Positions 226 to 46,500 of a DNA stretch of 54,038 nt are shown piece after piece. Source of the stretch: Seison nebaliae (lineage: Eukaryota); the NCBI GenBank assembly GCA_023231475.1, contig JALJEE010000877.1, forward strand, positions 1 to 54,038. Direction: 5' to 3'. The notes under the pieces were generated by a model. The model did no database searches and was not told the origin of the DNA. It saw nothing but the letters and a program-made list of their open reading frames with translations. A program made the position numbers and the translations under genes. Positions within the stretch are counted from its first letter, which is position 1. Every line of letters begins with the position of its first letter.

Positions 226-840
226 TTATCCGCCACCACGGAATCCATATTCTAATCATCGTCATCTAGTTGGAGGGAAGGATCGTTCATCCCACGATCA
301 GAATTATTAATCGATTTAATAATATTTTTAGACAAGTCAAAAAAAAAGAATTTTTTTTTAGAGGTTACTTTATGTCCATTATATGGTTATAGTTATATTC
401 GGTAGACATGTTTGAGTTATCTGCTTTCTTTAGAATATTGAACCACATCCTTTTTCATATTAATTTAACAATTAAAAACTTGGTTGGTTTCTATTAAAAA
501 GAGAGTTAACTTAATTCCTTTTTACTGAAATGACGTTAACTTTAATTTTTTCTTCCAAAGGAGACCTTCACTTTCTTCCAACTCATCAGGTTGATATTAC
601 AGAAAAATGGGGATAACTTCCCACAATCATCGGATTGAATAATTTTATAAAGAGTTAACTTCCTAATGGAAAAAGTTGGAGGGAATTGAAGAAGAGAATA
701 ACAAATGAAATTGATGGTTTTGAGAGTTGTTTTGAGGTTATAGTGGATGAAATTTAAGATTTTTTGAGAAAGAAGAAAAAAGAATAATTAATTTAAATAT
801 AAATCGTTTCTTAAGCTCAACGACGCTATAAGGTCGAGCG

Positions 841-3800
841 ATGTATTATCAATTGGACGAGAGTGTGGAAGTGTCGTTAGTGAGTAGTAATGACGATACA
901 TCGCTTATTGAGGTGGTTGATGTGGCATGTAAGAATGAATTGACTGCAATTTTATTGAATCGATCACTCGTCATTTTGACATGTAAAGGAAAGGAGTTCT
1001 TGATAAGTGGATTTTATGATTTTTCGGAGAGATTTATTGAGGAGAACGGTCAACCGAATGGAAATCTTTATTGGAATGATGATATGTCGATCATAGTCTT
1101 TTCAACAACGAGTCGAATGCTCGTCACTTTCCAAATTGAAATAATTTCAAAAGAGTTTGGAAATATTTATGTTCCTCCCATAATTGTGGATGATGGTGGA
1201 AGAAATGGAGATTTGTTGACATCGAAAGCTGTCGCCAGGAAATATTCCTCTCAATCATTTCAATCAAAAATTGGTCATCAGAAGAATGGAAAGATTATTA
1301 ATAGAAACCATTCGGAAATATCATCAACAATTCATTTGATTGAATGTGAACAGAAGGGTCAACTGTTTCATCAGAACAATGTTGAATTCAATCGAATTCG
1401 AAGTACAAAAGGACTGGATAAGAACAGTAGTGAATTATATCAATATCGTCCGATGGAAATCGTATGTATCTCTCTGACACTTAGTTGTTGTAAATTGTTT
1501 GTTGACGATATCACTTCTGTTATTGTTGTTCCATCCAATTATGCTTGTTCTCATCAACAACTTTTGGTGATTAGTCGAACGAATTCGATTCATATTCTCG
1601 ATTGGAATTTGGAATATATCGCTTATTTCGGTAGTTTAGTTCATTCGGAATGTAAAGTGAAATTGGGAGATCGACTTCAATCGTCGACAGGTAATGAAAG
1701 AAGTTCATCGACATCTAGTAACAATTATCCAACGAATGATTCATCGAAATTGAGTGAGACGGAGAATAATGAGGATTGGAGAATCATGTCAGTAGATTAT
1801 CTCTCACCGAAATTAATCGGTGGTATTTGTCGGAATGGTTGTGCCGTTTTACTTCATTTCCAACAATTGGACACGAACACTGGTCAAGTGATAGCAAAGA
1901 TGAATGTTTTGAGAGATAACGGAATTCAACATTTATGGTATTCACACACATGTCTCTCAGCTAATCTGAGATATTCTCTTCTCGCATTCGGTACATTTAA
2001 CGGTTGCATTATCGTTTATCAATTAGATGAGATTAATTATGAATCGATGAAATATTCGCATGTACTCAATCCTGTGAAGTGTAATGAACATCATCGATCT
2101 CATGGAACGATTAATCAATTATCATGGAGTAGTGATAATATGGTATTGATGAGTGTGTGGTCGGATGGGAGTTATGCTCTTTATTCCGTCTTTGGTTCAC
2201 TAATTTTCTTTAATGATAAACTTTTGAATAATATGGGAATTGGACCTCCCTCTATTCGATGGGATACCAATGGTTATGGTTTATGGTTCTTTACTACTAT
2301 TCGAAATAAGAATAAAGATGTTGATGATGAGAAAAGAATATTATGTGGTCAATTAATTCATCTCAATTATTATAAAGCAGCATTCATTAACAATTCGAAT
2401 TATGTTCTCATTTTCATAAATTCTATCTCATTCTCATATTCCTCTTCTTTCTATTGTTATAGACGAATGGAAATCATTTACTCTTACATAATGATCATCG
2501 ATGTCTCATTGGATTTAACGAGAAGGATGGAGAGAATTCAATGGATAATAATGAAATGAGAGATGATGAAGATTATATGGATTGTAGTAGTCGAGTATGG
2601 CTCGAATTGGATCTGCCTACCAGTTATCTCATCCACAATTGGCCTATAAACGTTTATTTTATTAATTTCTCCTCTTCATCTTCATTTTCATCTTCCTTCA
2701 GCTTTTTGGAATTAGTAAAGATGGTAAATATGTGGTGTGTTGTGGAGTGAGTGGATTCATCGTATATAGTCTCCATTTGAATAAATGGATATGTATCGGT
2801 GATATCGGAGTAGAAAGAAGTTTCTCCGTCACATCCGGTATTTGTTTTTGGAATGAATTTATTCTTTGTGGAACGGCACAATTGGGAGAGAAGAAATGTA
2901 ACACAGTTTCCTCATAAATTCTTCGTTCGTTACATATTTAATTTCTCATTATTTTTCCATGCATTCCAGTTACAATTATTTAATCGTGATGCTCTCGATC
3001 CATATATGCCATCAAGAACTTCCATTCTAACATTACCAGGTAAATTGTGTTGTTTCAATGTTTATAATGATTGGATTATTGTTCTAACAACTGACGAGGA
3101 GTCATATGTAAACAAGAATGAAAAAAGAAGAACATCATCATCATCATCATCATCATCAAATACGGCAACATCATCCAATTATTCAGATAAAGGAAATTTG
3201 ACATTTATTCATATTCTCGGAATTAGTAAACATTATCAAACAACATCTTCACAAAAACAAATCGAAGTAAATTCACAATCAACTCCAACCATCCTCCAAC
3301 AACAACAACAACAACAACAATATGTGGAGAATAGTAATGAGAAAGGTTCGGCTGCTACCAGATTAATGGCATTATATGAATTCGATTTGACAAATCAATC
3401 TGTTGTGCCATTCTCTCTCTTATATGAATATACAGATTTTTCTGTACATATCGCTTTATCACCAATGCAAACGGATACGAAAAGTCTTCATGGAACATAT
3501 AGAACTGATTCGAGAATTCGTAATAAAATTCCATCTATCGGTTTATTAACCGAACCATCAAATCTTATCATTCCACAATCAACTGATAATGATAATGATG
3601 ATAATGATGGGAAGAAGAAAAAAAAAAAGAATCAATCCATGATGATGATGATGAGTAATAGGAAGAATGAGAATAATCTCAATCGGAAACATGATGCAAA
3701 AAGTATCATTCTCAATATTGGTGGTCGCGTTTTTCTTTATCGATTGTCGAAAGTTGAAAATCGAGATGAATCGAATAAGAAAAATGATCAACGTTTAACT

Positions 3801-5873
3801 CTCTCACCACCAATTCTCATATCGACACATTGTGAGAATTTGTGGTATGAACCGGCATTGATCGATAAAGATTCGAATGAAAATGAAGAATCTTTCTCTT
3901 ACAATTATCGACGTGATACTTTGTGGATGATGTGTGGTTATGATGGTTTACGAATATGGCTTCCCGTTACTTTATCCTCTTCACATTTCTTCGATAAATC
4001 TTTAACGAATCGTCAATTTATTACGAGAACGATGGTACAAATTTATCCAGATATTTATCCGTTATCCGTCTCTTTCGATTCGTCCACCATCTCTGGTATA
4101 TTTACCAATCCCCATCAATTCGATGTGAAATTTTCAAATGATATATCATCCATCCAATCCTCTTATCAAACCAATTCGCTATCTAACAAATTATATAAGT
4201 TTTATAATCGAATAAAAAATTATTCGAATACCATCACCAAACGATTTCTCCAACAAACACGTCAATCTTGTCTCCATCACATTCTTTGTCATTTATTACG
4301 ATATAATTATGACGAATCGGCTAACATCATCGCTAATTCGTCAGCTCATCAAAAATCATTTTGTCATGTTCTCGAACTTCTCCTTCATCAGACGTTGGAG
4401 GAAGAAGCGATGAAATCCGTTCCATTACCTGATTCACTCCTTCCCAAAATTCAAATTTTCATTACTCAATTTCCAATTTATCTTCAAGTGATTGCTGCAG
4501 TTATTCGAAAGACTGAAATGGCATTGTGGCCAATCCTTTTCCAAACGGGAGTCAATGTCCGACAATTGTTCGAAGAGGCCATCATCTCTAATCAATTGAA
4601 AACTGCTGCACTTTATCTCATTATTCTCGACACTATATCGAGCAGTGGAGAAGCGGAAACATATGCCATTCGACTTCTCACTCAATCGTTAGAAAAGAAA
4701 GAATGGGATATTATTAGTAGTATTGAACAATTTTTAGCATCAATCGATCCAATTGATTTAGATGGAGAAATGGATGATGATGATGAACATCATCATCCTC
4801 CATCATCCACTACTAAGAGAAATATAAAGAATAATGAAAATTCAATGACAACTATTATTGATGATTCGAGAAAGTGTTCAAATAAATCAAATAAGGAAAC
4901 GAAAGAAGAATTCGGATTAACAATTAGGAAAGCTCCTCTCAAAACTCTCACAAATTCACGACGTAATTTCAATTATATGGATTATACAAATCAATCAGAA
5001 ATGATGAAACCATTAACGACTTCAGTGCAAAATAATGAGAATTTATCTCATCGAACTTACAATCGATATCGATCGAAAACAACTGATGAATTACCATCAA
5101 AGAATAATAATAATAATAATAATAATAATATTAATAATAATATTAATAATAATAATAATCAAAATAATGATGATGATACCATTTCATCTAATGATACAAT
5201 TGTTCATGTTGATATATGTATGAAGAATAAGAAGATTAATCATACGAAACGTCCAAGTAGTTTATCATCAATTCGAGATTTGATCAATAATAATGAACAG
5301 AATTTATCTGATCAAATGTTCATTCATAATTGTGAAAAGAAAGTAAATGATAAATCGAAATTGATATCAGATGAATCATTTCAAACTCAATTTATTTCTT
5401 CTATTGTCGCTGATAGTAATGAGGATGCACATCGTCGTTTGTCCAATGAGATAAAATTTCGTCCAAAATTTATTGATCAAACAATTAATAATAAATTGGA
5501 GGAATATTTGTCGGAAGGTGATATTCGATCTTTTGGAGAGATTATCGGTCGAATGAGATATTTCAATGAGAATGACTGGCTAAGAAAGAATTATAATAAA
5601 TTTATTTTATCATCTTCATCTTGTGTGGAAACATTCTTCTTGAAAGTTCATCAATCCTTCAACATTCCTCTTCCAACAACTGACTATTGTCACGATCATC
5701 ATTTATCTTGTTCTTTAGTATCGATGACAGATGTCCAATCGTCAATCTTACCTGATGGCATCAAAACTACTCTACGAAATTATAATGAAAATTATACAGG
5801 AACTATCGATCTCTCTTCACTCACCACTGACACAACTGACACACACAGTCAAATCAACGAACGAATAACACAA

Positions 5874-5911
<38 letters not shown>

Positions 5912-7059
5912 GGAGAATAATAATTCTAAATCATTCAAGTTAATTGTATCAGCAACGACCTCGTCTTTCCATCGATATAATTCAGATAATTGTTTATTAA
6001 ATGATTTGAATCGATCGAATTCCATCGACAGTTCCATCAAATCCATTCTCACCAATACCACAACACTAACAAACAATGATGAGAAATCGAGATTATCGAA
6101 CGATGATAATGTTCAAGATACGTTTCTCATCAGAAATTTTTTCACTCTTACTAATCGTTCATTAATCGTTGCACAATGTGTCGGGTTAGAATCGATTCCA
6201 CATTTTTCTCTCATTCCTTCTTTTATTGAATAGATTTCTCTTTAAACTCTTTCTCATTAATGAATGGTATGATCACGCTTTCATTCTTCTGGTCGTACTT
6301 CAAGATGTGGTGGGAGGACAATGTTTCGAGAACGAACTTAATTTAATCACAATCGATATATCGATGTTAGATCGATTACGAAATACGATGAATGTTATTG
6401 AAGAGATTAGTAAGAATTATTGGTTGGAAATTCTCTTCTTATTTTTCTTTTTTCTTCAATAATCATTTCTTTTCTCCTTCATTTCCATCTCATATCTCAG
6501 TAAATGTCTACAACGATTCATTCAAAACACGAAAGAGAATATCCAACTAAAATTAGATGATCTTAATTTTCGATATTCATCCACTGTAACCGCAATCGAT
6601 ATCGCTCATCGCTTATCGAAATCATGTCATTTTACTGAAGATAAAATTTCGCCTATTCACAAAACAACTTCGAAATCGACATCTTTTCTTAATGAAGATA
6701 CTTCCATGTCGGGAGACGGAAGATTACAATCGACAATTAATCAACAAAATATTCTTACTTTTAATGATACGAATAGTCACTCGAATAAATCACTCCATTC
6801 CCTCACTTCTACTGTTTTTGACAAATCGATTCCTTTAAATGATCGATCAAATTTGATGGATAGTACAGATTTATTACCAAGAAATTCTGGTTCAGATTCT
6901 TTCAAATCATCATCATCATCATCATCAACATCATCAATAACGCCTAATGGACATCATTTGAACATTGTGAAAGATAAAAAAATTTATAAAACGAAAAATA
7001 TTAAAAAGAAATTATCAAACGATCAAATTGTCAACCTTCTCAACAACAACAACAACAAC

Positions 7060-7644: not shown

Positions 7645-10600
7645 TTATCCAGTGATATTTCATCGGTTATTTCTTTGTTGTTATGGAGAGGAATGAGTGA
7701 TAGAATATTGGATAAAAAAAAACATTCGACTCATTTTATCATATACATTTCCATCACATGCATTTATTTCCTCAATCATATCACATATGGAGATATAGTG
7801 CTCAAGTGAAAAAGAGAACATATTATTATTATTATTATTATTATTATTAAAATATATTAAATTGACAGAACATTTGCTTAAACTGTTTGTATAAGAGGAG
7901 AATGGTGATCAATAACATATAACGAGTTTTTCATACAAAATGTTAAAGGACGAAAAAAGAAAAGAAAAGAGGAAGAATTCTCTTTAGTCAACAAATCAAT
8001 GTAATAACATAGTCGAATGACGAACGATGTTTCTGACTCGGTCATTTGTAATTACATTAATTCCTTTATGCATGGACCATTGAGCATACGATTTGATTAG
8101 GTTCCACTAATTCATACAACATTCCTTCTTCTTTATACCTATTACCTTCCTATTTCAAATGAATTTTCCTCATCATTTCCTTCCCATTATATGCATCCCG
8201 TTTACCATTCCTCTTCACTCCATTTGCAAATATTGAATATTCACCATATTCAAACAGAAAGATATGGACACAACATCATCTCCGAAAATATCTATAATTT
8301 GGAACTTTCTCTCAATAAGCAAAACGAGAAAAGGCAAGTGCTTCTTAAAATTCAATCATCATTTCTCCGATCCTGTCTAGATTTGAGAACGAATAAAATA
8401 ATTACCATTATAAACAATTCTCTTCAATAGGACCTTTCAGACAAAATTCTTTTTTTTTCCAATTCTCATAACTTTCTTATCATCCAATTTTTGGCATAAC
8501 GGACCATGTCGTTAGATAGACTTATTCAAACTTCGTCCTATATGTAGAATGTTTGGAGAAATATATTTAAAATCCGATTTTCATTATGGCCTATTTCGTC
8601 CTTCCCAATCAATTTCTCAATGCTTATGTAACTATTAGAGATTTTTTTAAATCCTTCTATAAACTAGATATGTTTTTTTTTTAAATTTAAATTTTTAACG
8701 ATGTAACACATACCGAAGGACAGACAGTTGAATAGTTTATTGAAGAATAGAGATCTTTACAGACATATTGAAATGGAATATTATAGCAAAATTATAGGGA
8801 AGACATTGATTAATTTGGTATGTTACTTATCATTTTAATTGAAATAGATATCATATAAAATTTTTTTTTTGATTATGCGAATTTTATTATCACTTGCATC
8901 AAATTGATTTTCTTTTGTTCCATTGACATTCGTCGACGAAAACCAGAAGGAGAGGAAACTGATGAATAAAGTAATTGATTATTAACATCTCCATATCTGT
9001 TTGTCACTTTCGACGCAATAAATATATTAATAATTTCCGATCGATTAAACTAAAATTAATCGTGTCGATTGCTTTATTTTTTATATTTTAATTATTCGCT
9101 TCATTTATGGAAATTTTGTTTAATATGCGATATATTATAAGTCATTCAACTTTATATTAATTGCTCACCTTCCAACCTAATTGTTCCGTTTGAAAACTAG
9201 ATGAATCTTGATGATGACATATATTGACTAGTGCTGTGATTATGATCTGTATACTTCATTAGCTCTCCTTTTCTATATTTCAAGAAGACCAATTCATTCT
9301 CATTTCTCCATTTTGAGAAACTATTAAATTAATTAATCATGTTAATAATACTAATTAGATATTTTGTTCATAATACCATCCTTCCTTTTTTTTTACCAAA
9401 ATTATTTTTATTATCATAAAAATATATTAGCTAATTAACCATATAAGAGATTGATTTTTATTTCTTCCGGAAGAGCAGACGACTTTAAGTTGCACATTTT
9501 AATAGTAGAAAATTGGATAGACATTTTCGCGTTACATTTACGTAAAGCAATGGATGTACGACCAATGGTAGTAGGGATTGACAGGTCAGATTCGTCAATT
9601 TGACAGGAACTATCGATTCGCATAAACACCGATAATTTAAAGGAATCTTCATAATTTCTTCCACGTTCAAGGACGAAATGTTTATATTCTGTCCAATTAC
9701 TAATTGATGACCTCCATTCTTAACTGAAGTTCATCGAAAACAAAACGCACTAGACCAAAGACTACAACATCTCGCCCAATAAACGAATTTGTATGACATT
9801 CTCTCTTATTATTTCTCCTTAAATCTTTTATGTTATCAGGTCCATCCATTCAGTGGAAATCAAAATTAATCGGATAAATTTTTTCCAATTGTCATAACGT
9901 TCTCCATATTAGGATTATGAATATGACACATAAGTCAAAAATGATAAGACTCAATTTCTCTATTAGGATTAGAAAGAGATGCACACTCGATATGAATCGT
10001 TGAGTCTATAGAGCCTGTATGGAGGAAACTTAAATGAATTAGTCTAGCTAATACTTTGGCTTCACCCTGCACATAATTTGGAATCGATTCCTCTCAAATA
10101 CGTCACCTTAGTTTGAAATTGTCATCTTTTTATTATTCACGAATTTTCTTATTACATATGAACACAACTCTCTCTACATTGTGTTCAAAATTTTTAACGT
10201 CAATCTTTGAATAACTTAAAAAATGATCGACTAGGAAATTTCAATTTAGTTGAAAGTGATGACGAAAAATCCATCTTGGAAAAATTAGTCAGGAAATGAT
10301 CTAAATGACCGTTTTGGGGATTTTAACAACTGCTTGATTTTTTGGTAAATTTATCGACAATGTACTGAATGGAAGAAATCGTTTTTGCTTGTTAAAAAGT
10401 CGAGAAAAGTCCTAAAAAAATATTTTCCTTCGAAGTATTCTTCTTCAAGTATTGTTCGAATATATATTGTATTATAGGAGAGCATATAGTATTGGGAATT
10501 CTACGAAAAATTTCAATAATTTAATTGACATCATTTGAATGGAAATTGCATAAAATTGATATTATTTGCAATAGCAGTAAATCGAACTTATTATGCATCA

Positions 10601-12869: not shown

Positions 12870-15800
12870 ATGAAGAAACATATTAGTCGAATGAGAAACA
12901 GTTATCGTCGATTTAATGAAGCTTGTCGATCAGGAAATGAATCAAGAGCATTATCATACTACCGACGAATCAAAAATAATTTCATTTTCGATGAGATTCA
13001 TGCCCATATTGCCAATGCTTCGACAAATGGCGGAGGTAAAACAATTAAAAATCTTCCAAACATTCCTTTTGGTCGACGATCGATGAAACTGAGACATCGA
13101 ATTACTAATCAATTTCCCTTCAAAGTGAATAAGAAACGTCACATGAATTTCATTTTGAAGAAATGGTCGTTTCGAAGTTTAAACGAATATAATCTAGCTC
13201 TCATTATTCACACGATCTGCGAGAATGGCCTTCTCGATCTCTTCATGTTTCTTTCTCATAATTTTCTTCTTCCTCAACTTTCTTCTAATTTCTAGTGAGA
13301 TCGTAAATGATTTTCCGTTCGAATGTTCCTTTGAAAATGCGTCGCACAACAATATCATTCATTCGATTTGTTTATGTGGAAATGAAATGACTTCGATCGA
13401 AATGGTCAATGTTCTAATTGATCGAAAACGCATAAAAAATCATAATATTATCTCGTCAAAGAATGGTGATGGGAATACACCGATTCATTTGGCATGTCAA
13501 CTTCAATATTTTCAGTTAGTTCGTCAATTAATCGCGTTGAATGAAAACTGTTTATATGTTCGAAATGATGTAAATTTGCTGCCAATCGATTATCTGAACG
13601 AGAGGACATCGAGTGAATTTTATATTTATCTCCAGTCCATTATGTTGTTCCCAGCGACGACGATGTTTTCGATGGATGAGCATCTCTTCGACTTCTCATC
13701 CTCCACTTACTACACTTGTCGTTATTGTTCGTTGCCTCATCTCAATCCCAACCAAATGAGTACGATGATGAAGGAGAAGCATAGTGTGGACGAGACGATG
13801 GTGAAGGAGATTATTGATAATCTGCGAAGTATTTTAAAATTGATTAATGGAGATGATAATTCTCTAATGACCACATCGAAACAATTAAGACATTCAATTT
13901 TTTTTAAATTTCGACCACAAACCTTCAAACATGATCGTTCCTTGAATGTTGGAGTGAAGAGTCTTGATTTTCGATTATGTCAAAGTGTTTTCAACATTTC
14001 TTCTTTGTCATCATCAACACCATCAACATCATTATCAGCAAGTGGAGAATCGAAAGAAGTAGTGAACAATTTACGTACAATGAGTTACAAACAGCAAAAG
14101 ATGAATATGAATTCGGTCGATCAATTCTCTAGTTTACCTGATGTCCGATTAATGGAGACGAGTGACGAAAGGAAATATGATTGTCCTATCTGCTTTCGTC
14201 GGACATCAGCAACTTATCGGAAAGAGGAATGTCATCATCGATGTTGTTTGGATTGTTGGAAGAGATATCTAACCGAAAAGATAATATCTACTGAAATATT
14301 TATAGGCAATTCAAATTATAATTTATTGAGAAACTTTAAAATCGATTGTCCATTCTATGATTGTAATAAAATGTTAAAGAAGAATGAAATCGAAAAACTC
14401 CTGCCAGATAAACGCTATTTAGTAAAGAAATTGTTCATTCAAGTCGATAATCAATGTCGTAAATGTGGAAATGATTTATTGAAGAATTCACTGGATGTTA
14501 ATAAAGAAAAAACGGAAAATGATTTTGTTGAAAAGGAACGAATGTCAGAATGTGAAAGACGAATGAAGGAATCATATCAAAGACGACATAGTAGAGGAAG
14601 TGGAAAGATGGAAGAGAATTCGTCGAATTTATCAACGACAAAATTTTCGGTTGTCGACACAACATCTAAAGGAAAAACTGTCACCACGACTAATAGTAGT
14701 AGTGAAAGTAGTGTTTGTATGGACTTGAATGAAATGAGGAGATTGAATTATCCATCGTTGTTCGGAAAGAATAGTCGATTGTTGAAGAAATGGTTAAATA
14801 TGATAAAACCTGAAACAATTCATCATACAGATGATTCCACGAAATCATTGAAGAATATGGATCGATTAGGAACAGCAGAACATTGTAGTAATTATCATTA
14901 TCAATGCCGATATTGTTCTTTGAATGAGCAACATGGACCATTGACATGTGAGGAATCAATCGGTTGGTATTCCATTTATCATTCACGAATTGATCAATTT
15001 AAAATTGAGGACAAATGTACGAATGCTCCGTACGAGAAATTCGAGAGCGATCTCACCGAATTGTGGATTCTGAAGAATTCCAAACGATGTCCCAATTGTC
15101 ACGTGGCCATCGAGAAGAATGATGGATGTAATCATATGAAATGTATGAGATGTTTCCATCAATTCTGTTGGGTATGTTTGGATGATTGGAAGGGACATGG
15201 AGCGAACACTGGAGGTTATTATCAATGTAATCGTACGGATAAGATTACGAGTCAATTGTATTCGAGGAGGAAATTCCTTCATCGCTTTAACAAAAAGAAT
15301 GATAGTTCTTTTATGAATCTTTTACTTTTATCGTTTAGTCGTCGTTATGAATATTATGAGAAGAATGAAAATATGCTGAAAGAGACGATAAAGAATTCTC
15401 GATATCATATCATTCAGTTATTTCTCGCAACGATGCTCCGACGAGATATTCGAATACGAAAATCTTTAAAAACTTCTTTGAATGTTCGACGAACGAATTC
15501 GTTTCGCATAACTCGTCGCCGACAATTTTCGTTATCTCCATCATCCACAATCATTCGAAGGAAGAGAATGGCACGAACACAATCACCGATTGGAATTGGT
15601 CGAAGTTGTTCGTTGAAATTATTGAAGAATGATCGATTGCATCGTAATATGAATGGAATGGATGATATGATGAATTTATCGGAATATTATAAGAAATTAT
15701 TAACCTTCCTCCAAACCAATTTGATCCAACGACAAGTTTATGAAGAACGAACAAATAGCGCTATAGTTAATGCACAGTTGGTTGAGCAATGTCCGATTAT

Positions 15801-16887
15801 TGGATGGATGGAAACGATGTTTAAGGAAATGAAGAAATCGTCATCTCTTCTCAAATGGTCGAATGCGTTCGCATATTTCCGATGGAGGAACTTCTCTGCC
15901 AATTTCAACAAATCTCTCACAACCGAATTATTTCAGTCGTCAATTCTTTATCATTTGAAACATGAATTGATTGCTTTCGATAAGAAATTCCGTCAATTAG
16001 AATACATCTACCATCATCTCTTTCAAATCTTATACTATAACTCTTATAATTTGAAATTACGTAATCTTCTCGAATTAATTACGACTTTACATTCGGCGCG
16101 TGTACATCTCTTAAAATTTTTGGTTTGTTCCCTACACAATGATTTTCTTCATCCCTATTGTCAAAATCAATCGATCGCCAATAGTACTCGATATCGACTA
16201 CAATTAATCCAAAAAAATACTCATTCTTCTTCTAAACATTTGGTAAAGTATAATATGAATGAGATGGAATTATCAGTTCGATTTCCCTTAAATATTCTTC
16301 ATTTGATTGATGGGAAGCAATCCACCATCATATGTAACGATATCAACAAATTAAGAACGTTCACCATCAATTTTCTTACAGTAGATCGTTCGGCTAAGAA
16401 GAATATATGTGATCTACCTTGGATCATCGACAAGAATGGTTGTCACATCAGTCTACTCTCAATCATTAATAAAATACCAATCGTTCAACAATACATCGAC
16501 CATATGATGAAGTTGCAGTCATTTCTCGTCACGTCAACCGCTGCTTCTACAACCACTTCACAATATGAACGGAAAGAGAAAGATATGGAATTGGAAGACG
16601 AACAATATAAAGATGAGAAGTTCTTTCGACGTTGTCTCAATTTCAAGTTTTGCAGTCGTTACATCAAATTGAAATTAGGGAATGGAACATACATCCCTTG
16701 GTGTACATTATATTGTCTTCAAAGATATTTCTACTTAATGAAGAAGACTACGGTCGTCAAAAATCGGGAGATGAAAGTGGACAAGTTAACTAAATTGTAT
16801 AATTATGTTCAATTATCGACGTGTATGAATAAAGAGGAAAGAAGGAAACTTCTCCATATGATTGAACAAATAATTCTCACAAAATGA
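12870..16887 (+). CDS. ANKIB1: Ankyrin repeat and IBR domain protein (ANKIB1-like, Ariadne-family RBR E3 ubiquitin ligase), 2 exons, about 1322 aa
   Basis: Exons 12870-13246 and 13296-16887 (intron GTTTCT...TAG, 49 nt). The N-terminal MRNSYRRFNEACRSGNESRALSYY resembles the ANKIB1 start. Domains: ankyrin GNTPIHLAC, RING1 CPIC..CHHRCCLDC..CPFYDC, RING2 CPNCHVAIEKNDGCNHMKCMRCFHQFCWVC, then HGANTGGYYQCN. The start may be ATG 12870 or 12891. Confidence 0.88.
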
Positions 16888-17426: not shown

Positions 17427-20400
17427 TCATTCTTTATCATTATTGAAATTTTTCTTCAAATTATTTTGTTTGAGCTGTTGTCGTTGTCGCAATCTCAAGG
17501 CGAGTGATCGTCGACGATGGAATTCTCGACTTTGTTGAGGATTAAAATTCCATGTTTCAATGTGCTTCCTATTCGATGTTTTCCAACCATTTAACATAAC
17601 TTTAGTGAGTCGATCCAAAGGATTGAGTTTGGGCGTATATTCCAATCGTAACGGTTCGCCAACATCCGTATCATTTGAGTAAATGAGACGGAACATTTGT
17701 GGGGTGAAATGATTGTTTGGTTTTTTATTTGGAAATGATGTTGCATTCTCTAGTTGAATATTGGAGTTTCTCAACATCTCTAAAAAGTTTGACGTTCGTC
17801 GAAATAATCGACTTCTTAATAATTCTGCATCGTCAACTTCATCTCCATCATAGTTATCATGATTTGTCGACATGAGTTTAGTTTGTATAATTTGTAGCAT
17901 CTTCTCTTGTAACATCGGCAATAAATGATTTGCGATTTCAACAGGAATACAATTACATTCTCCAGTCGGACCGATAGGTCCAAGTTCACCTTCAACACCC
18001 CTTCGTCCCGGCGGTCCTGGTACACCATTATCTCCTTTCTTACCCTTTTCTCCAGCAGTTCCTTTCGATCCCCGTAATACTAATTGAATTATTAGAGAAT
18101 TGTTAGCTTGTCTTATTAAGGAAACCTTTATTAGATGATGTTGGAACTCGAACAAATGATTCATCACAATCACCTTTTACACCTTTTGGACCATGAGAAC
18201 CTGGAGGACCTATGGGACCGGTGGGACCTGGATGTCCAGGAACACCGGGCATCCCTGGTTCACCCTGAGTACCGGTATAACCACGATCTCCTCTAACGCC
18301 TTTCGTTCCAGGTTCTCCTTTATTTCCAGTTTTACCAATGCCTGGTGGTCCGGGTGGTCCTTTAAATCTCAACGAATATTCTTCGATTCTTTCTGCAAAA
18401 GAAAAAAGGAATAATTAATTTTTCCGGTTAAAATAATTATGTTGAGGAAGATGAATAATTTATATGTTTTAATTTCCCCAATACACTTACCTTCCAATAA
18501 ACCATCAATAACTTGACGGATGTTTGTCAATGATGGATATATACCCTAAATCATCTTCCAATCGACCCCCAAAAGAGAGAGAAAAAAAAGAAAAATTTTA
18601 TTAAACCTTCTAATAATTGCATGACGATATTACGAATTGTATCCATTGAAACAGATGGACCCTACATATTATTACAATTAGAGTATTATTTTCATTTTAT
18701 TCTACCACTTTTCTTTTCTTAAAACAATTCCATTTGACAACTCTGTACTAACCGGTGCGCCTGACTGACCAGGTATTCCAGGTGATCCTGCCTTCCCCCT
18801 TGGGCCCAGTGGACCTCTATTTCCCGTTTTGCCTGGATGACCTGGAAAACCCATATATCCAATAGGACCACGTTCACCCTTTTGTCCAGGAAGACCAATA
18901 GGACCTCTTGGTCCTTGAGTTCCTTTTTCACTTTCACCGTGGAAAATTTTTCGATCTACGCATTGACCTTTCATCCCCTAATTAAATCATTTTGAAATGA
19001 AAAAGAAACGATCAAAAGTGTCATAATAGAAGAAATAAAATAAAATATTTGAAAAAACTGAAAATAAAAAATATATTGATAAGATTCAGATTAAAAATAG
19101 AAATGGTGATAAGTAAATTTTTTGGACGCATGGCTACCTGTCAGATATACAAATGGCAGTTTATGATTGATACATTATCGATTAATAATGATAAACTTGT
19201 ACTATCAAAAGTTTCATCGAACTCATTTAACAATATATCCAACAGTGCACCAGGCGCTCAAAAGAATTTTTGGAAAAGAAATGGTTTCAAATATTTTGTT
19301 ATGGAAATCAAAAGGGATGAATGTATGAGAGAAGAGAATAATATTAACTTTTTCTCCTTTCGGCCCTTTAGCACCCTGAAATAAGAAGTGTGAAATTTTG
19401 AGGAATGATGGAAGTGCAATTTTATTGAAATGAAACTGTTGAACCCTTGGGACCCACGTCGCCCGTATCACCTTTCTCTGTTGTTACTTGCTTCCGCTCA
19501 TTCTTTTTCCACAATTCTTCGTTCCGTTTAACTTTTATTTGCACATTGTTATATTTCGTTTCCAATGTCCGTATCGAGTCCAAAACTTCATCAAATCCTT
19601 TCGCACTTGGACCAACGGGTCCGATGTCGCCTTTAACTCCCTTCGAACCTCGGATTCCCGTATATCCACGATCGCCCTTATTCCCCTTCATAAACAGATA
19701 ACATTAATAATTGAATAGTTCTCATAAAATCAATAATAAAATGGATATGGAACATTAATTCATTCATTCGTATATTTCAAATGTATTCTATCTTCTATCC
19801 AAATGAGTGATCGAATATCATAAAAATTTAATTTATTTATGCTCCATCGTCTTAATGTTATATGAGATTTCAACTCGACAATGACCATCTACTTTATAAC
19901 TGATGATTTATGGTACATTAATTAAGATTTAATCGAAGGTTAAACCGTTTGGAATGACGAATTGGAAATTAGAAGACGAAAGATGATAATTAAATTAAAT
20001 TAATTGGAAAATGAAAAATCATTTTAAAAAATTTATTATCCTTTAATTGTAAGAAATGTGAGGAAATAACTCAAAATTGCAGTGAGATTGGGAGGTAGGC
20101 ATGAAGTGAAACAGATAAATAAAGAAATGTGAATAGAACTCAATTAAGATTAAACATCCAAAGAAGAAATAAACATGTTGCGGATAAATCAATTAAGTTA
20201 CGTAGAAGATTTCATTTGATAATTGATGAATAATAAACGAAATTCAAGGTCGTCCTCGAACTTCCCTCTTCACTAATTATTTCTCATTCTTTTAATAATG
20301 ATTGATTTGTTTAACCTCCTTTCAATAATCACATATCTAAACTTGCTATCTTATTCTCATCTAACTCGCCAATGTAACTTACTCTGTCTCTAATAGATGA

Positions 20401-23372
20401 ATGGAAGGTGGTGGACTCTCTATTCTCTCCTTCCATTCCACATATTGGCGTTTGGTGGTGTTGATAGTATTAATCGTTTTATGAAATACAATTTAGAAAT
20501 CATTTCAAATTTAAAGAATCATTACTTAACTTTTTCCGTTTGAGCTGTATTGACATCTACAAATCGTATCTCGCCCGGTTCTCCTTTCATTCCTCGTTCA
20601 CCATCCAATCCTGGTTCTCCCATTCCTCCAGGCACTCCTGGATAACCACGACCTCCCCGTTTGCCTTTATCGCCGCGAGCACCTCGTTTACCTTTAGCGC
20701 CTCGCTCTCCCTAAAAAGATAAATGGAAATTTTAAGAAAAATCAATTGAAGAAATTAGAGGAAATCTTTCTTTTCTTTTTAGACAATAAACAAAGAGATT
20801 ATACGCACCTTTTTACCGTTGCGTCCATTTGCACCGAAATAACTCTAAATGAAATAGATAAACAATTAAAAATAGAACGAAAATTATTCAAAATTAAATT
20901 TTAAATTAAAATCAAAAAAATTAATAGTAAATGACCATCTAATGAAGATTAATTCTTCATCTATTCATTGTTACTGATAATGATGAGTATGAGGATTTAT
21001 CAATAGTAAAATTTTAGATACCAATTATTATTATTGAATAATATTTCATTCCGTCTACTTATTTTCAACATGATACATAACTAACAGTAATGTATTTGTA
21101 AATGGGCAAATGTTTCAGATCAGGTTCATGAGCATTTTTTTATCATTTCTAAACGGCAAAGAAATGAATGAAAAGAAGAAATGGAAGAATGGAACATCAA
21201 CTGATTTGATGAACGTCCGTTTTCCGAATAGAAGAAGATGTTAAAACAGAAAAAAAATCTGTTAAGTTCTCCAAATGGAAGAGAAAGGGCAAATGAGAAG
21301 GTTATTCTTATTTAATGATAAAACGAGATAGAGAGGATGGAGAAGATAAGATGGAGAATGGCTGTGAATCAAACTGGATTAAACTTCCCGGAAGATAAAA
21401 TTGAAAGACATGAACCGATCAAGATGGAAATCGAGTAAAGGAAATGAAAAGAAGAAAGAACTTATGATTTCCGACTGGTGTAGCATGATGAAGAAAGGGA
21501 AATATATAAAAAATGAGAGAAATAATTAAGTAAAACTTACATTTCCTGCTATTCCCTTTTCACCTTTCTCACCTTTTGGACAGGTCTGTTTGCATTGATT
21601 CTTCTGAAAAAGAATGGTTAAAAAGGAGAAGACATCATAAGAAATAGATGTCGAAATAAACTTACCGATTGTCCCATATAAGAATTGAGTTCGGAACATT
21701 CGTCCCGTTTCGCCCGTTCCTCATCACACATGAACATGAACCATTGAACATCAATCTAGAGATGAGAAGAATTTGGTTGATAAATATGCGATAAGAAAAT
21801 AGGGAAATGTTGATGTGGTGGGATGGAGATGAAATAATGTGCATACGAGGAGGATATGAGGAGAAGAATATATTAAATATCCTTAAAGTTAAAAATGAAT
21901 CATTCTCAATTGATCTATATTCGTTTTCTTCTTAGAAGAGTAGAAATAAAAGAAAAATAATTAAAATGAATCCATCAAATGGAACAGGTTAAAAGTAGAG
22001 AATTACAATTGAGATGGAAGGAGAATTTTGGAAGTAAAAGAAGTAATAATGAAGAACTTTAATTGACTGGGAGATGGAAGTGGATTGATCACTTTTGAAT
22101 AATTCGGTGAGTCCTGAACTGTATGATTTGAGTGAAGCACGTGGACTCAATTTCGTCGATTCAATAAATTGACAATTAATGTAAACATCCAATCTTTCGA
22201 TGCCGAAAGATGCATGTAATTTATACCATTTGAAAGGATGGAATTTCTGAAGAAATGCAACCAAGACCAGATGTATTATAAAAAGATATGAAACTTTTAC
22301 ATAAACGGAAAGATCGACATATGCTGAGCGTCGCATACCAAAAATATCAAGATAATGCAATTGCAATTGGACGCCGGTGGGATGGAAGGATTCGAACGAT
22401 AATTTCAACAACACACTTCCATCCTTCCTGAGAATATTGATCAAGGTCCATCGTTTCCCCGTAGTTTGTGGCAGGCGGAATGTCGTTTCAATTCCAAAAG
22501 TTTTGGGTAATCCAAAAGGAAATAATCGATTGTTGGGTAAACGCAGAAAAGATATAGGAGATTGTTTCGCAATAGAGAATGCTCGTTGAAGATCATTCGA
22601 ACCACGTATAACACGAAGACCTGAATCACGTAGTCTATCGATACCGAACGCTGACAACAAATCTTTACCTGCCGAATTGTCATCTGAAAGTTCACGACAA
22701 ACGGCTCGATTAGCTAAAGTGAAAGAAAGACAGGAAAAATATTAAAGGAAATCCATTTAAAAATTTTTGTTAAACGAAAGCAGAGAATGTGAATATGAAG
22801 AAGAAGTGGCGAAATGTTGTTAGCAACAGCTCCCTACTCGCAACCACATAATATAGTACAATATAAATGAACATATTCATACTTGAATTTAATTGTTCGC
22901 TGAAAGTGAAATGTCTTCTCTCCATCTCTAAAGGAGCATTGCGGAATATATCGCTGAGCTCATTATCTTCGTTCGTCTGTAAACGCATCTGTTTCGGTTT
23001 TCCATTCTCATTCGACGACGAATAATGATAGAATTCTGGATTCAATTGTTCTCGCAATTCATTCGGTGTTGCTGATCGACGTGATATTTGTGGTTGAATG
23101 ACACCTGAAGACAGAAGACGTTCAAATGTGATGAAAAGTTCCAAGTGGAATAAGCAGTTAGTCGGAAAAAAATGAAGAAAATCGAATAAAAGTGAGAGAG
23201 GTGGGAAGGATGATTTTCGGAAATCGATCTTACAACCTTACCAATCTCCAAAGGGATTATTCAGCTTGGATTTATGTTAAAAATTTAGTTTATACTCACC
23301 TCGCACGTAATGAATTGCCAGGAATATTAAGCAATATTGACAGTAGTTTTTCATCGGAATAAGAGTTATCAT
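17427..23372 (-). CDS. FACIT-like collagen with N-terminal TSPN/LamG domain and interrupted triple helices (COL9A1/COL19/COL21/COL22-like architecture), about 915 aa
   Basis: Exons (minus): 23372-23300 (signal-peptide-like), 23104-22883, 22713-~22295, 22246-22058, 21755-21666, 21603-21541, 20844-20809, 20710-20531, 19685-19437, 19375-19349, 18977-18753, one of 18661-18607 or 18545-18491, 18392-18126, 18079-17427. The sum is 2748 nt, in frame. TSPN motifs: C...[33 protein letters not shown]...[16 protein letters not shown]...RDECSEL. Several Gly-X-Y blocks follow. Confidence 0.85.
18491..18545 (-). other. Collagen mutually exclusive exon B (55 nt; [18 protein letters not shown] + 1 nt)
   Basis: TAG acceptor at 18548-18546, GTAAGT donor at 18490. 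Same length and phases as exon A, and a homologous peptide. Confidence 0.8.
18607..18661 (-). other. Collagen mutually exclusive exon A (55 nt; [18 protein letters not shown] + 1 nt)
   Basis: TAG acceptor at 18664-18662, GTTTAA donor at 18606; phase 0 in, phase 1 out. Confidence 0.8.
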
Positions 23373-31694: not shown

Positions 31695-33611
<1,917 letters not shown>

Positions 33612-43564: not shown

Positions 43565-46500
43565 TTATTTTTTCAATATTGCATCCGACATTCTCCACAA
43601 TTCCTCATCGTTATAACAATTCTGAAAAGAATCGAAATATTTCAATAAACTTCCATTCTCCTCGAATTGATAGGTTCTTAAATAAGATGTTTAAGGTTTG
43701 AAACGTATGAGAATTCTAACATCTTCTTATAATAAGTTAATTGTTCCAAACATTTATATTGATACCATCTCTTATGGAAATTAATCTGATCATTCTTCAA
43801 CATATCTCGATTTCCGGTATTGATGAAGGATAAATCTTGAAGAATCAGTCCTCTACAGAATTGAAAAAAGAGATTCACTATAATTTTCTTATAAAATTAT
43901 AAAAATTCCAACATATATGGAATACATGGTGGCTGACATTTGGCTAAAGTATTTCGATAATTTTTAAACGATCCGGTACTGTCGATCAATTTGGAATAAT
44001 CCGCAATGATCTGAGAAAATATTATATTTATATTTATAACAGAATTATAATAACTTCTTGGATTTTACTTGACCAACCGAGTCGTCGTACTTGGGAAGAG
44101 TCAATGGCAGACAATATTGCCAGGAATGAATTATAATTATTCATTTTCCTTAAATACTTAAAATAAAAAGATTAATAGATGTCAATTGGTAATGATGATG
44201 AAACTTTTGTTATTGTTATAAATTTCCACATATATTTCTCACGTAATCTTTCACTCTTTTGTTCAATGATTCGTGATCGACACCTGACAAAAATAGAGCA
44301 ATTGAATCATTTGAATTGTTCCTTCGAAAAATGGAACCAGTATGATAATCGATTAAAATGTAAGGTGAATTCAAAAAGATTTTGACATAATTCTTCCGAC
44401 TGTAATTTGATCCAAAGAATAATTTCAGGGATCTTGATAGCTTGAAATTTCTTTGCATCTAAATAAGTCAATTGTTCTGCAATTATCAATGATTTAATCT
44501 GAAGTAAATTGATATTACTCTCATCGATTGTTCGTGAGAATAATGAGGTGGAATGGTTTCTTATTCCATTTCTCTTTTTCACCTGGACAACCTCTTTCAA
44601 TTTCTCATTGAGACAACGATAAAGTAGACGCGCTAAGATAAGTTCTCCGTCATTGATGAGAATGTTACATATGAAATAAACTAATAGTTGTACAGTCTCT
44701 TTTGTTAGTTCATCACTAATGAAAGAAAAGTGAAAGAATTTAAATTGATAATTTAAATAATATAATATTGAGATGACGAACTATAAATCGTGGACTATTC
44801 GAATGATTAACGAGAAAGATTCTTTTGTAATTTTACTGAAGATTTCGTTATCTTTATCATACTTCACTTCATTATTCAGTTTCTTTGTATAGAACACACA
44901 ATATCGGTAAATCAATTTGTAGAGAAGGAGATATGGTGAAATGAATGTACGAAATGTTGTGATGAATGCTTCTTCGTAAATCAGATCTTTCGATGTTGTT
45001 GTTGTTGCGTTGACGATTAAGGCGTCCATTGTACCAGATCTCAATAATGGAGTTTTCGTGTTCTCCTATAAACACATTTAATCAATTTTCCTTCTCGAAT
45101 TAAAGAAACCTTTTCTTGATAATTTAAATATTTTCCCACCTTTATCTCATCCAAAATGTTATTTCTGATAGAATAAAAAATTTATAAAATTTTATGAATA
45201 AATTGAATAAACTCAAATTTGGAATTGTCAATGAGATTCTGTCGATAATTTGCTTTTACTTTCCTGTCGTTCACCGTCTCATAAATATTCTCGCAACACA
45301 ATGGCATTTGATGAATAGTATTCTGATATTTTTCCCATTCAATCTTCCATCGACTCATCATCGACAACCATTCGTTAGTGTTAGTGAGATTTAATGAATT
45401 TAAAAATTTTTGCATTTTCTTTTCATTGTCCTCCGTCTGATAATATTGCAATAAAATTTTGATTAAGCAATCTCATAAAAATATTGCGAAAATAAAACAT
45501 ATTCGATTGCTAAAAAGTTTTTATCGTCTGATGAAATAGTTTGACCGAACATCTCCGAATAAGTCTCAATACCAATCGCTTTCCGAAGACTATTACAATC
45601 CTTTTCTCCATTGTGCCCATTCTCATAATCTGATGTGATTGATGAGGTATCAGATGATGGAGAAGATTTCATGTCAAAGTTTATGAACGCAGTTCCTCCA
45701 CCTCACAAAAAGAAGAAGAAGTTTGAAAGAAATAAAATGAATAAATTGTTGAAACTTTTCCCGAAACTTTGCACATTGGAAATATTACCGTCCGCATCAA
45801 TATCTCCCACTTTCCCACTTTGCTTTAGACCAACACCATGAAAATGGACTGATGGATGTTGTTGTTCATCATAACCCAGAATTCTACCAGTTTTCTCATC
45901 TTTTATTGGGAATTTCGTTTGACGCTCACCTTTCGCTTTGATATCTTTCCGATGAGATGTCAACTCTTTCGCTTTCGCTGTTCCATCAACTAAATTTTTC
46001 TTTAATTGTTTCTTCTCCTTCAATTTCTCAGTATCGTTAATATCGATCGATGTTTCGATGATCTTATCAGTTTTCGAATCACGTTGTTGTCGAAATCCTT
46101 TGATTCGATGAGTATCTTCCATCTCTTTCTCTTCCTCGATCTTCTCATGACCATCTGCCGTTCGTACATGTTTTTTACTTTTCGTCATATTGAAACTCTG
46201 TTTCTCTTCAGTAAACTCTGTTTTGTTATTATCAGTTTGTTTATTCCGTTTCAATGGTTTCATATTTGGTGCAATGAAATTGTCACTACGATCAAAAATG
46301 GATGTACCACTTGGAGCTAATCGGTTTGATGACATCAATTGATGTTCGTTTGATGAGTTGAAGAAGTTTCTCTTCTTTTGACCAATTCCATGACTACGAA
46401 ACCAATCATCTCTTAAACTTGAATCGTTAACTGTCATTTCGTAATTCGAAAATGAACTTGTTACTGGTGGTCGATTAATAAACGAGTTGTTTTCATCATA

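What the first reader, a model, noticed from the sequence alone, without database searches (positions are those of the whole stretch)
18491..18661. Tandem mutually exclusive exons switch the NC2-type trimerisation helix of a FACIT-like collagen
Seen: two 55-nt exons lie 61 nt apart, each with a TAG acceptor, a GT donor, phase 0 start and phase 1 end. They encode homologous peptides [18 protein letters not shown] and [18 protein letters not shown]. Either alone joins the upstream GXY exon to [19 protein letters not shown] in frame; including both or skipping both frameshifts. Known: this position and pattern (G.S.S...IR.I...LL between collagenous domains) match the FACIT NC2 helix, which drives trimerisation and, in collagen IX, chain selection and register. 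Inference: one gene may make two chain types by splicing, giving alternative homotrimers or an A/B heterotrimer, a job vertebrate collagen IX does with three genes. I know of no described case, but could not search.
Basis: partly seen in the sequence, partly recalled or inferred. Interest (0 to 1): 0.9.

Follow-up and report, generated by a model that had tools for sequence, protein, structure and literature searches.

The report
Twin exons at collagen's chain joint
A collagen gene of a tiny rotifer relative carries two old look-alike copies of a small exon for half of the helix predicted to join its three chains; the copies are likely used one at a time to make two chain versions, and some arthropod-like relatives have doubled the neighbouring exon of the same joint instead.

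Summary
Two homologous 55-nt exons (A, B; phase 0 to 1) lie 61 nt apart in a collagen IX/XXI-like gene that a database record names Seison nebaliae SNEBB_009821. They encode the N-terminal half of the NC2 joint. B looks selected: 47% nucleotide divergence from A, no indel, core residues kept (neutral simulations reach this in 0.3-2% of runs). The intron between them has the layout of known mutually exclusive exons: its only branch-like motif lies 6 nt from A's donor, ahead of a 25-nt pyrimidine tract. No RNA could be tested. Against: the two database isoforms are A alone and A plus B's last 21 nt, in frame; none has B alone. The 55-nt exon is single in 4 of 4 arthropod-like genomic loci, but 2 of the 4 carry twins of the next NC2 exon, so the joint was likely doubled twice independently. 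The scan noted twin NC2 exons before, in arthropod genomes. Best reading: mutually exclusive exons giving two NC2 versions (0.65). An A/B heterotrimer remains speculation (about 0.2). New variant of a known kind.

The parts
17427..23372 (-). Whole gene: 14-exon collagen, leader + TSPN domain + interrupted Gly-X-Y + NC2 + Gly-X-Y + CxC + 173-aa tail (P0001, 915 aa)
   Evidence: Database protein mapped exon by exon on the window; layout
21666..22713 (-). Exons 3-5: thrombospondin N-terminal-like (TSPN) domain
   Evidence: Matches collagen IX alpha1 NC4 structure 2uur, E 2.9e-17; no Pfam hit
18753..18977 (-). Upstream Gly-X-Y exon, ends in phase 0
18607..18661 (-). Exon A, 55 nt, phase 0-1, N-terminal half of NC2; present in both database isoforms
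   Evidence: collagen IX NC2 match; family profile score 16.5, best of 37,859 open 18-mers in the window
18600..18604 (-). Only YTNAY branch-point-like motif of the A-B intron; predicted branch A at 18601, 6 nt from A's donor, 56 nt from B's acceptor
   Evidence: motif scan; use as branch point is inferred
18571..18595 (-). 25-nt pure pyrimidine tract, displaced to the 5' half of the intron
   Evidence: longest run in 14 introns of the gene, others 4-15 nt; 4 runs of 25 or more on both strands of the window
18566..18570 (-). G5 tract between the pyrimidine tract and B's acceptor
   Evidence: only case of 12+ pyrimidines followed by 4+ G on either strand of the window
18491..18545 (-). Exon B, 55 nt, phase 0-1, diverged copy of A; consensus donor GTAAGT, pyrimidine-poor acceptor (7 of 19)
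18491..18511 (-). B-prime: last 21 nt of B behind an internal AAG acceptor, in frame after A (+7 residues); branch-like TTGAC at 18530-18526
   Evidence: database isoform P0002; motif
18126..18392 (-). Downstream exon: C-terminal half of NC2 and following Gly-X-Y; single here, twinned in 2 of 4 arthropod-like loci

Best explanation
Exons A and B are an old tandem duplicate of the 55-nt exon for the first half of the NC2 joint of a collagen IX-like chain, and they are likely spliced one at a time, so the gene would make two chain versions that differ only at the predicted trimer-forming helix. Shown: anatomy, homology, frame consequences. Inferred mechanism: B's branch point likely lies at +6 of the A-B intron, on top of A's donor, followed by a long pyrimidine tract and a G tract; U1 at A's donor and U2 at that branch point could not bind together, so A cannot be joined to B. 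Transcripts with both or neither exon carry early stops and would be degraded. A is likely the default exon and B the regulated one (weak acceptor, consensus donor). A+B-prime is read as a leak product of this block or as a gene-finder compromise. Inferred effect: the swap keeps most of the predicted core (L6, I9, R10, V12, I13, L16, L17) but changes V4P, T8N and M14D and puts Gly at 15, so it would tune trimer stability, register or partner preference; tissue-specific homotrimers are more likely than an obligate A/B heterotrimer.
For: Selection on B: 26 of 55 nt differ from A, with no indel and both splice sites intact; of 100,000 neutral simulations from A, 31,948 stayed open, 306 reached B's family-profile score and 664 its BLOSUM score; for the 5' 33 nt alone, which lie before the internal acceptor, 1,828 of 100,000. 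A fairer null that lets A drift synonymously gave 842 of 40,000 for BLOSUM and 25 of 40,000 for the core pattern, which I chose after seeing B. B keeps the family's I-R-Q at 9-11 where A has I-R-N. Intron layout: 13 of 14 introns have a YTNAY with A at -12 to -40; the A-B intron is the one that does not, and has the longest pyrimidine run; same layout enforces OGDH exons 4a/4b (PMC7969005, passages); donor-branch distance under 50 nt in 57 (9%) and non-triplet length in 377 (60%) of 629 human clusters (PMC5740500, passages). Ancestral exon: an exact 55-nt AG/GT exon in 3 of 4 genomic loci. Parallel case: next NC2 exon twinned in L017 (102+102 nt) and L016 (105+105 nt), and both copies joined in 1 of 12 matching proteins (P0076, Apolygus). 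Model: three copies of the A form, residues 568-640, scored 0.43 against a best control of 0.01; runs share at least 96% of contacts, pLDDT at least 76; mark reached by 21 of 30 self-pairs and 0 of 23 single chains (eukaryotes 17 of 29, animals 7 of 16, only 1 of 7 without an older solved relative); a like complex is solved (5ctd) and the surest contacts are in the Gly-X-Y part, so this shows likeness, not binding. Exon-encoded interface positions in that model: 4, 6, 8, 9, 10, 12, 13, 14, 16, 17.
Against: The two database isoforms are A and A+B-prime; none has B alone, and I could not learn how they were made. B fits the family profile far worse than A (4.2 against 16.5; at least 11 unrelated window 18-mers score above B). 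B's acceptor has 7 pyrimidines in 19 against 10-17 for the 13 annotated acceptors, and another AG lies 9 nt upstream that would give a stop. 61 nt is not too short in itself: introns of 46, 48, 61 and 62 nt occur in this gene. YTNAY is common in AT-rich DNA, so its absence from one window is weak alone; a U-rich run behind a weak donor could instead serve exon A only. The G tract lies at -24 to -20, outside the -15 to -3 window that defines such elements in PMC6339879 (passages). No NC2 swap among 13 annotated isoforms of 4 invertebrate genes, and all 7 intronless loci with an NC2 match carry one form. No close relative was available to show that B is conserved.
Confidence: 0.65

Rival explanations
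1. B is used only as a 21-nt cassette after A (A versus A+B-prime), lengthening the NC2 helix by seven residues; the 5' part of B is no longer exonic.
For: Exactly what the two database isoforms show. The internal AAG acceptor has a TTGAC motif at -16 and 11 of 19 pyrimidines, better than B's own acceptor; an AAG acceptor is used at annotated intron 8. The result is in frame, 922 aa.
Against: The 5' 33 nt of B also look constrained (1,828 of 100,000) and keep G1, S5, I9, R10, Q11 and the TAG at exactly 55 nt. A gene finder given an upstream-to-A hint and a B-to-downstream hint could build this model without it existing (inference; annotation method unknown).
Confidence: 0.17
2. B is a dead or dying duplicate that is never, or only accidentally, spliced.
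For: Low family score, poor acceptor; no B-only isoform on record.
Against: Open frame, exact length, no indel, consensus donor and kept core at 47% divergence; an annotated isoform uses B's donor; the intron carries a tract arrangement unique in the window.
Confidence: 0.12
3. Sub-case of the best reading: A and B chains are made in the same cells and assemble a defined A/B heterotrimer whose composition and stagger are set by NC2, as three genes do for collagen IX.
For: Collagen IX NC2 sets chain choice and stagger (PMC5126661, results and discussion read). At positions 14-15 A has M-Q (alpha1 M-R, alpha2 L-K) and B has D-G (alpha3 G-G) in the alignments; alpha3 is described as bent. M14D falls on a modelled contact. 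Two lineages doubled exons of this joint.
Against: Only 18 of about 29 NC2 residues change; both versions lack the family Cys at 13 that links alpha1 and alpha3; the A form alone models as a homotrimer; collagen XIX uses NC2 to trimerise a single chain (PMC7034273, passages). The chain has other non-collagenous stretches (452-495, 741-770) that could also steer assembly.
Confidence: 0.2

Closest known systems
Vertebrate FACIT collagens IX (PDB 5ctd/5cti/5cva/5cvb, 2uur) and XXI
   Same: [quoted passage not shown]
   Different: Cysteines spaced CxC, not Cx4C as in the COL21A1-like rows; no Cys at NC2 position 13; last collagenous domain broken by a 16-residue insert; 173-aa tail instead of about 16-20; chain variety, if real, comes from two exons of one gene.
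Invertebrate 'collagen alpha-1(IX)-like' proteins (insects, copepod, mite, nemertean; names from database records)
   Same: TSPN + Gly-X-Y + NC2 + Gly-X-Y + Cys pair; same 55-nt phase 0-1 exon in 3 of 4 unnamed arthropod-like genomic loci.
   Different: The 55-nt exon is single there; the twin, where present (L016, L017, Apolygus model P0076), is the next exon, 102-105 nt and frame-preserving, without the same intron layout.
COL5A1 exons 64A/64B
   Same: A pair of equal-length alternative exons (69 nt each, supplement rows of PMC5740500; exon pair in bioRxiv 2025.10.06.680821, passages) that a cited title places in the C-propeptide (reference list), the trimerisation domain of fibrillar collagens. 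Equating the 69-nt rows with 64A/64B is my inference.
   Different: Fibrillar collagen, globular domain, frame-preserving exons, RNA-validated.
OGDH exons 4a/4b (distant branch point type of mutually exclusive exons)
   Same: Branch point close to the upstream donor followed by a long U-rich tract (PMC7969005, passages).
   Different: There mapped at +25 to +41 by experiment; here only a motif at +6.

Membership tests
FACIT collagens | N-terminal TSPN domain | tested here: met
   2uur match E 2.9e-17
FACIT collagens | Several triple-helical domains with non-collagenous interruptions | tested here: met
   feature as described in PMC7034273 (passages)
FACIT collagens | NC2 helix before the last collagenous domain | tested here: met
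   5ctd_A E 7.5e-4; 7 of 9 listed hits are collagen IX chains; best database hits after itself are COL21A1 and insect IX-like
FACIT collagens | Two cysteines four residues apart at the COL1/NC1 junction (recalled definition; seen in P0003, P0120, P0138, P0141) | tested here: not met
   CxC at 740-742; invertebrate relatives show 1-3 residues between
FACIT collagens | Short C-terminal NC1 | tested here: not met
   173 residues after the cysteines
FACIT collagens | Binds the surface of collagen fibrils | not testable with these tools
   none
Tandem mutually exclusive exons | Neighbouring homologous exons of like length and phase with own splice sites | tested here: met
Tandem mutually exclusive exons | A block on joint inclusion (frameshift, donor-branch distance under 50 nt) | tested here: met
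   frameshift shown; branch position inferred from motif; an in-frame partial route exists
Tandem mutually exclusive exons | Junction reads bridging each exon over the other (criteria of PMC5740500) | not testable with these tools
   no spliced sequence was available; see Tried and rejected
Tandem mutually exclusive exons | Both copies conserved in related species | tested here: inconclusive
   no close relative found; distant loci have the exon single (0 of 4 twinned)

The most novel reading that the evidence does not exclude
Protostomes repeatedly rebuilt collagen IX-style chain selection inside one gene: Seison doubled the first NC2 exon, some arthropods the second, and each uses exon choice to make chain types that assemble defined mixed trimers with a set stagger, the job vertebrates gave to three genes.
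Probability: 0.2. Interest if true: 0.8.

Novelty: new variant of a known kind. Interest (0 to 1): 0.52.

Why it matters
How collagen chains came to choose unlike partners is usually explained by gene duplication. Two exons that swap 18 residues of a 29-residue joint, doubled apparently independently in two animal lineages, give a minimal natural test: four short peptide trimers would show whether splicing alone can create chain selection or only tunes stability. It also adds a gnathiferan to the animals with a FACIT-like collagen, a group that a 2010 review listed among deuterostome innovations (PMC3002383, passages). If B is dead or only a 7-residue cassette, the case is ordinary.

Tried and rejected
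RNA: no RNA holder listed; of 4 runs laid, 2 gave unspliced contigs identical to the window and 2 gave nothing, no joints; this says nothing on expression. A narrower look for low-depth contigs of the species' second lineage was not obtained, so conservation of B there stays open. No whole genome is held, so paralogs of this gene in the species were not searched. Annotation method of P0001/P0002: not found in passages of PMC8351084, PMC12690905, PMC12256650; the annotation paper and the COL5A1 paper are not held, titles only. Short intron as the block: rejected, shorter introns are spliced in this gene. Competing RNA structure as the block: the fold of 18752-18393 gave long AU-rich stems without a control, not pursued. 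A second NC2-like helix at 743-764: rejected, 485 of 500 shuffles score as well. NC2 swaps in annotated isoforms: 0 of 13. Atlas search gave no result. B-form and mixed trimers were not modelled. Literature: six searches listed no paper on alternative exons in a FACIT NC2; subscription journals are mostly not covered. PMC5740500 lists a human COL21A1 exon cluster whose position I could not see: it is not in the readable translation table and two supplement files are too large; if it lay in NC2 the novelty would drop. The profile used 34 segments left from 185 matches (117 distinct) after a 70% identity cut, and required Cys at 13, which lowers A and B alike.

Full report
Observation. On the minus strand two 55-nt segments, A (18661-18607) and B (18545-18491), each lie between TAG and GT, start in phase 0 and end in phase 1, 61 nt apart. 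With the rest of the gene, A or B alone gives 915 aa; both or neither give stops at 622 and 598 aa, 281 and 243 nt before the last junction. B is the best BLOSUM match to A among 37,859 open 18-mers of the window, narrowly on score (27 against 25) but with matching length, phase and splice sites beside it.

The gene. A protein search returned the window's own product, named by its source as Seison nebaliae SNEBB_009821. It maps to 14 exons, 23372-17427. Its N-terminal domain matches the collagen IX NC4 structure (E 2.9e-17); the exon region matches collagen IX NC2 (E 7.5e-4); the best database hits for that region are COL21A1 and insect collagen IX-like proteins. The exon encodes 18 of about 29 NC2 residues. 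The end of the last collagenous domain has CxC and a 173-aa tail, unlike the vertebrate rows, so it is FACIT-like, not a filed FACIT. Collagen IX NC2 is a right-handed helical bundle, not a coiled coil, and sets chain choice and stagger (PMC5126661, parts 1-2 of 4 read).

What the database says. The cluster has two isoforms: P0001 uses A; P0002 uses A plus the last 21 nt of B through an internal AAG acceptor, adding seven residues in frame. None uses B alone. I could not find how the models were made. If they follow RNA hints, B's donor is used; the model could be real, or a compromise between an upstream-to-A hint and a B-to-downstream hint (inference).

Is B alive? A and B differ at 26 of 55 nt (9, 7 and 10 by codon position) with no indel. 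Against a profile of 34 NC2 segments A scores 16.5 and B only 4.2. Yet neutral divergence from A to the same distance reached B's score in 306 of 100,000 runs, and for the 5' 33 nt alone in 1,828 of 100,000. Letting A drift synonymously raised the BLOSUM figure to 842 of 40,000; the core pattern, picked after seeing B, survived in 25 of 40,000. The 5' part, which the 21-nt model leaves out, keeps G1, S5, I9, R10 and the family's Q11. The evidence for selection is moderate and covers the whole exon.

Mechanism of exclusion. Length alone does not block A-B joining: introns of 46-62 nt occur in this gene. But the A-B intron is the only one of 14 without a YTNAY motif at -12 to -40; its single motif puts the branch A at +6 from A's donor; a 25-nt pyrimidine run follows (4-15 nt in the other 13 introns; 4 such runs in the window), then G5, an arrangement found once in the window. 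A branch point near the upstream donor with a long U-rich tract enforces OGDH exons 4a/4b (PMC7969005, passages), and donor-branch distances under 50 nt and frameshifts are listed mechanisms for human clusters (PMC5740500, passages). G tracts between tract and AG are described as silencers linked to alternative exons, but this one lies outside that paper's -15 to -3 window (PMC6339879, passages). B has the poorest acceptor (7 of 19 pyrimidines, others 10-17) and a consensus donor, which fits a regulated minor exon. The internal acceptor has its own TTGAC at -16, so A+B-prime is a plausible leak. All use of these motifs is inferred.

Relatives. A metagenome scan with a TSPN alignment gave 23 loci; 11 contain the NC2 segment, 7 without introns and 4 genomic. 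In 3 of the 4 it is an exact 55-nt AG/GT exon; the fourth lacks the downstream intron. None of the 4 has a twin of it. Their nearest named proteins are arthropod. So the exon is likely ancestral to Seison and arthropods, and its doubling is not shared with these loci. However, L017 and L016 each carry two equal-length copies of the next exon, the second half of NC2, and an Apolygus model has both joined (1 of 12 matching proteins). Two earlier notes of this scan reported twin NC2 exons in arthropods; I could not see which exon they mean, and what I tested is the second. Different exons imply independent duplications at one joint. No switching is shown in relatives either: 0 of 13 annotated isoforms in 4 genes swap NC2, and the 7 intronless loci carry one form.

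Effect on the protein. Three copies of the A form (568-640) scored 0.43 against a best control of 0.01, contacts agreeing at 96% or more, pLDDT at least 76; the mark was reached by 21 of 30 self-pairs and 0 of 23 single chains, on eukaryotes 17 of 29, and a like complex is solved, so the pass may be from memory. Ten exon-encoded positions touch in that model; B keeps seven as identical or hydrophobic and changes V4P, T8N, M14D. At 14-15 A resembles collagen IX alpha1/alpha2 and B alpha3 in the alignments. That hints at differing roles but is two residues. Both lack the Cys at 13. Two tissue-specific homotrimers are the simpler outcome; a mixed trimer is open.

Prior art. Six searches listed no paper on alternative exons in a FACIT NC2. 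COL5A1 has an exon pair 64A/64B (passages, supplement rows) placed in the C-propeptide by a cited title, so exon choice in a trimerisation domain is known. A human COL21A1 cluster of unknown position remains unchecked.

Verdict. Real duplicated exon; likely mutually exclusive (0.65), 21-nt cassette (0.17), dead copy (0.12). Heterotrimer by splicing about 0.2. New variant of a known kind; interest 0.52, raised by the apparent convergence with arthropods, held down by the lack of RNA and by the contrary annotation.

Noticed in passing
L017:9034-9135 and 9476-9577; L016:4019-4123 and 4316-4420: Twin exons for the second half of NC2 plus the start of the next Gly-X-Y run in arthropod-like metagenome loci; 15 of 34 and 15 of 35 residues identical, equal lengths.
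   Followed up: partly
protein P0140 (Cardiocondyla isoform X4), right after its NC2 18-mer: The sequence leaves the collagen frame exactly after the first NC2 exon's last residue, which suggests an alternative or mis-called acceptor at the same junction.
   Followed up: no
window 18502-18519, minus strand: A predicted 7-bp hairpin (pair probabilities 0.89-0.99) covers the internal AAG acceptor of B and might mask it; no shuffle control.
   Followed up: no
window 17427-17960, minus strand: Unusually long 173-aa tail after the CxC motif, with a leucine-rich helix-like start and a basic end; among the relatives checked only the nemertean protein also has a long tail.
   Followed up: partly
window about 19480-19605, minus strand: A 44-residue non-collagenous insert (residues 452-495) rich in charged and hydrophobic residues, possibly a further helical joint.
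   Followed up: no
window 832-6233 (+), 13198-16887 (+), 31695-33611 (-), 44307-44780 (-): Neighbours: RIC1-like, ankyrin + RING/IBR ligase ending 540 nt from the collagen's end, a homeodomain gene (NK1-like by recall), a RasGEF piece. Ordinary.
   Followed up: no
collagen gene introns, window 17427-23372: 8 of 13 annotated donors begin GTT, and introns go down to 46 nt.
   Followed up: no
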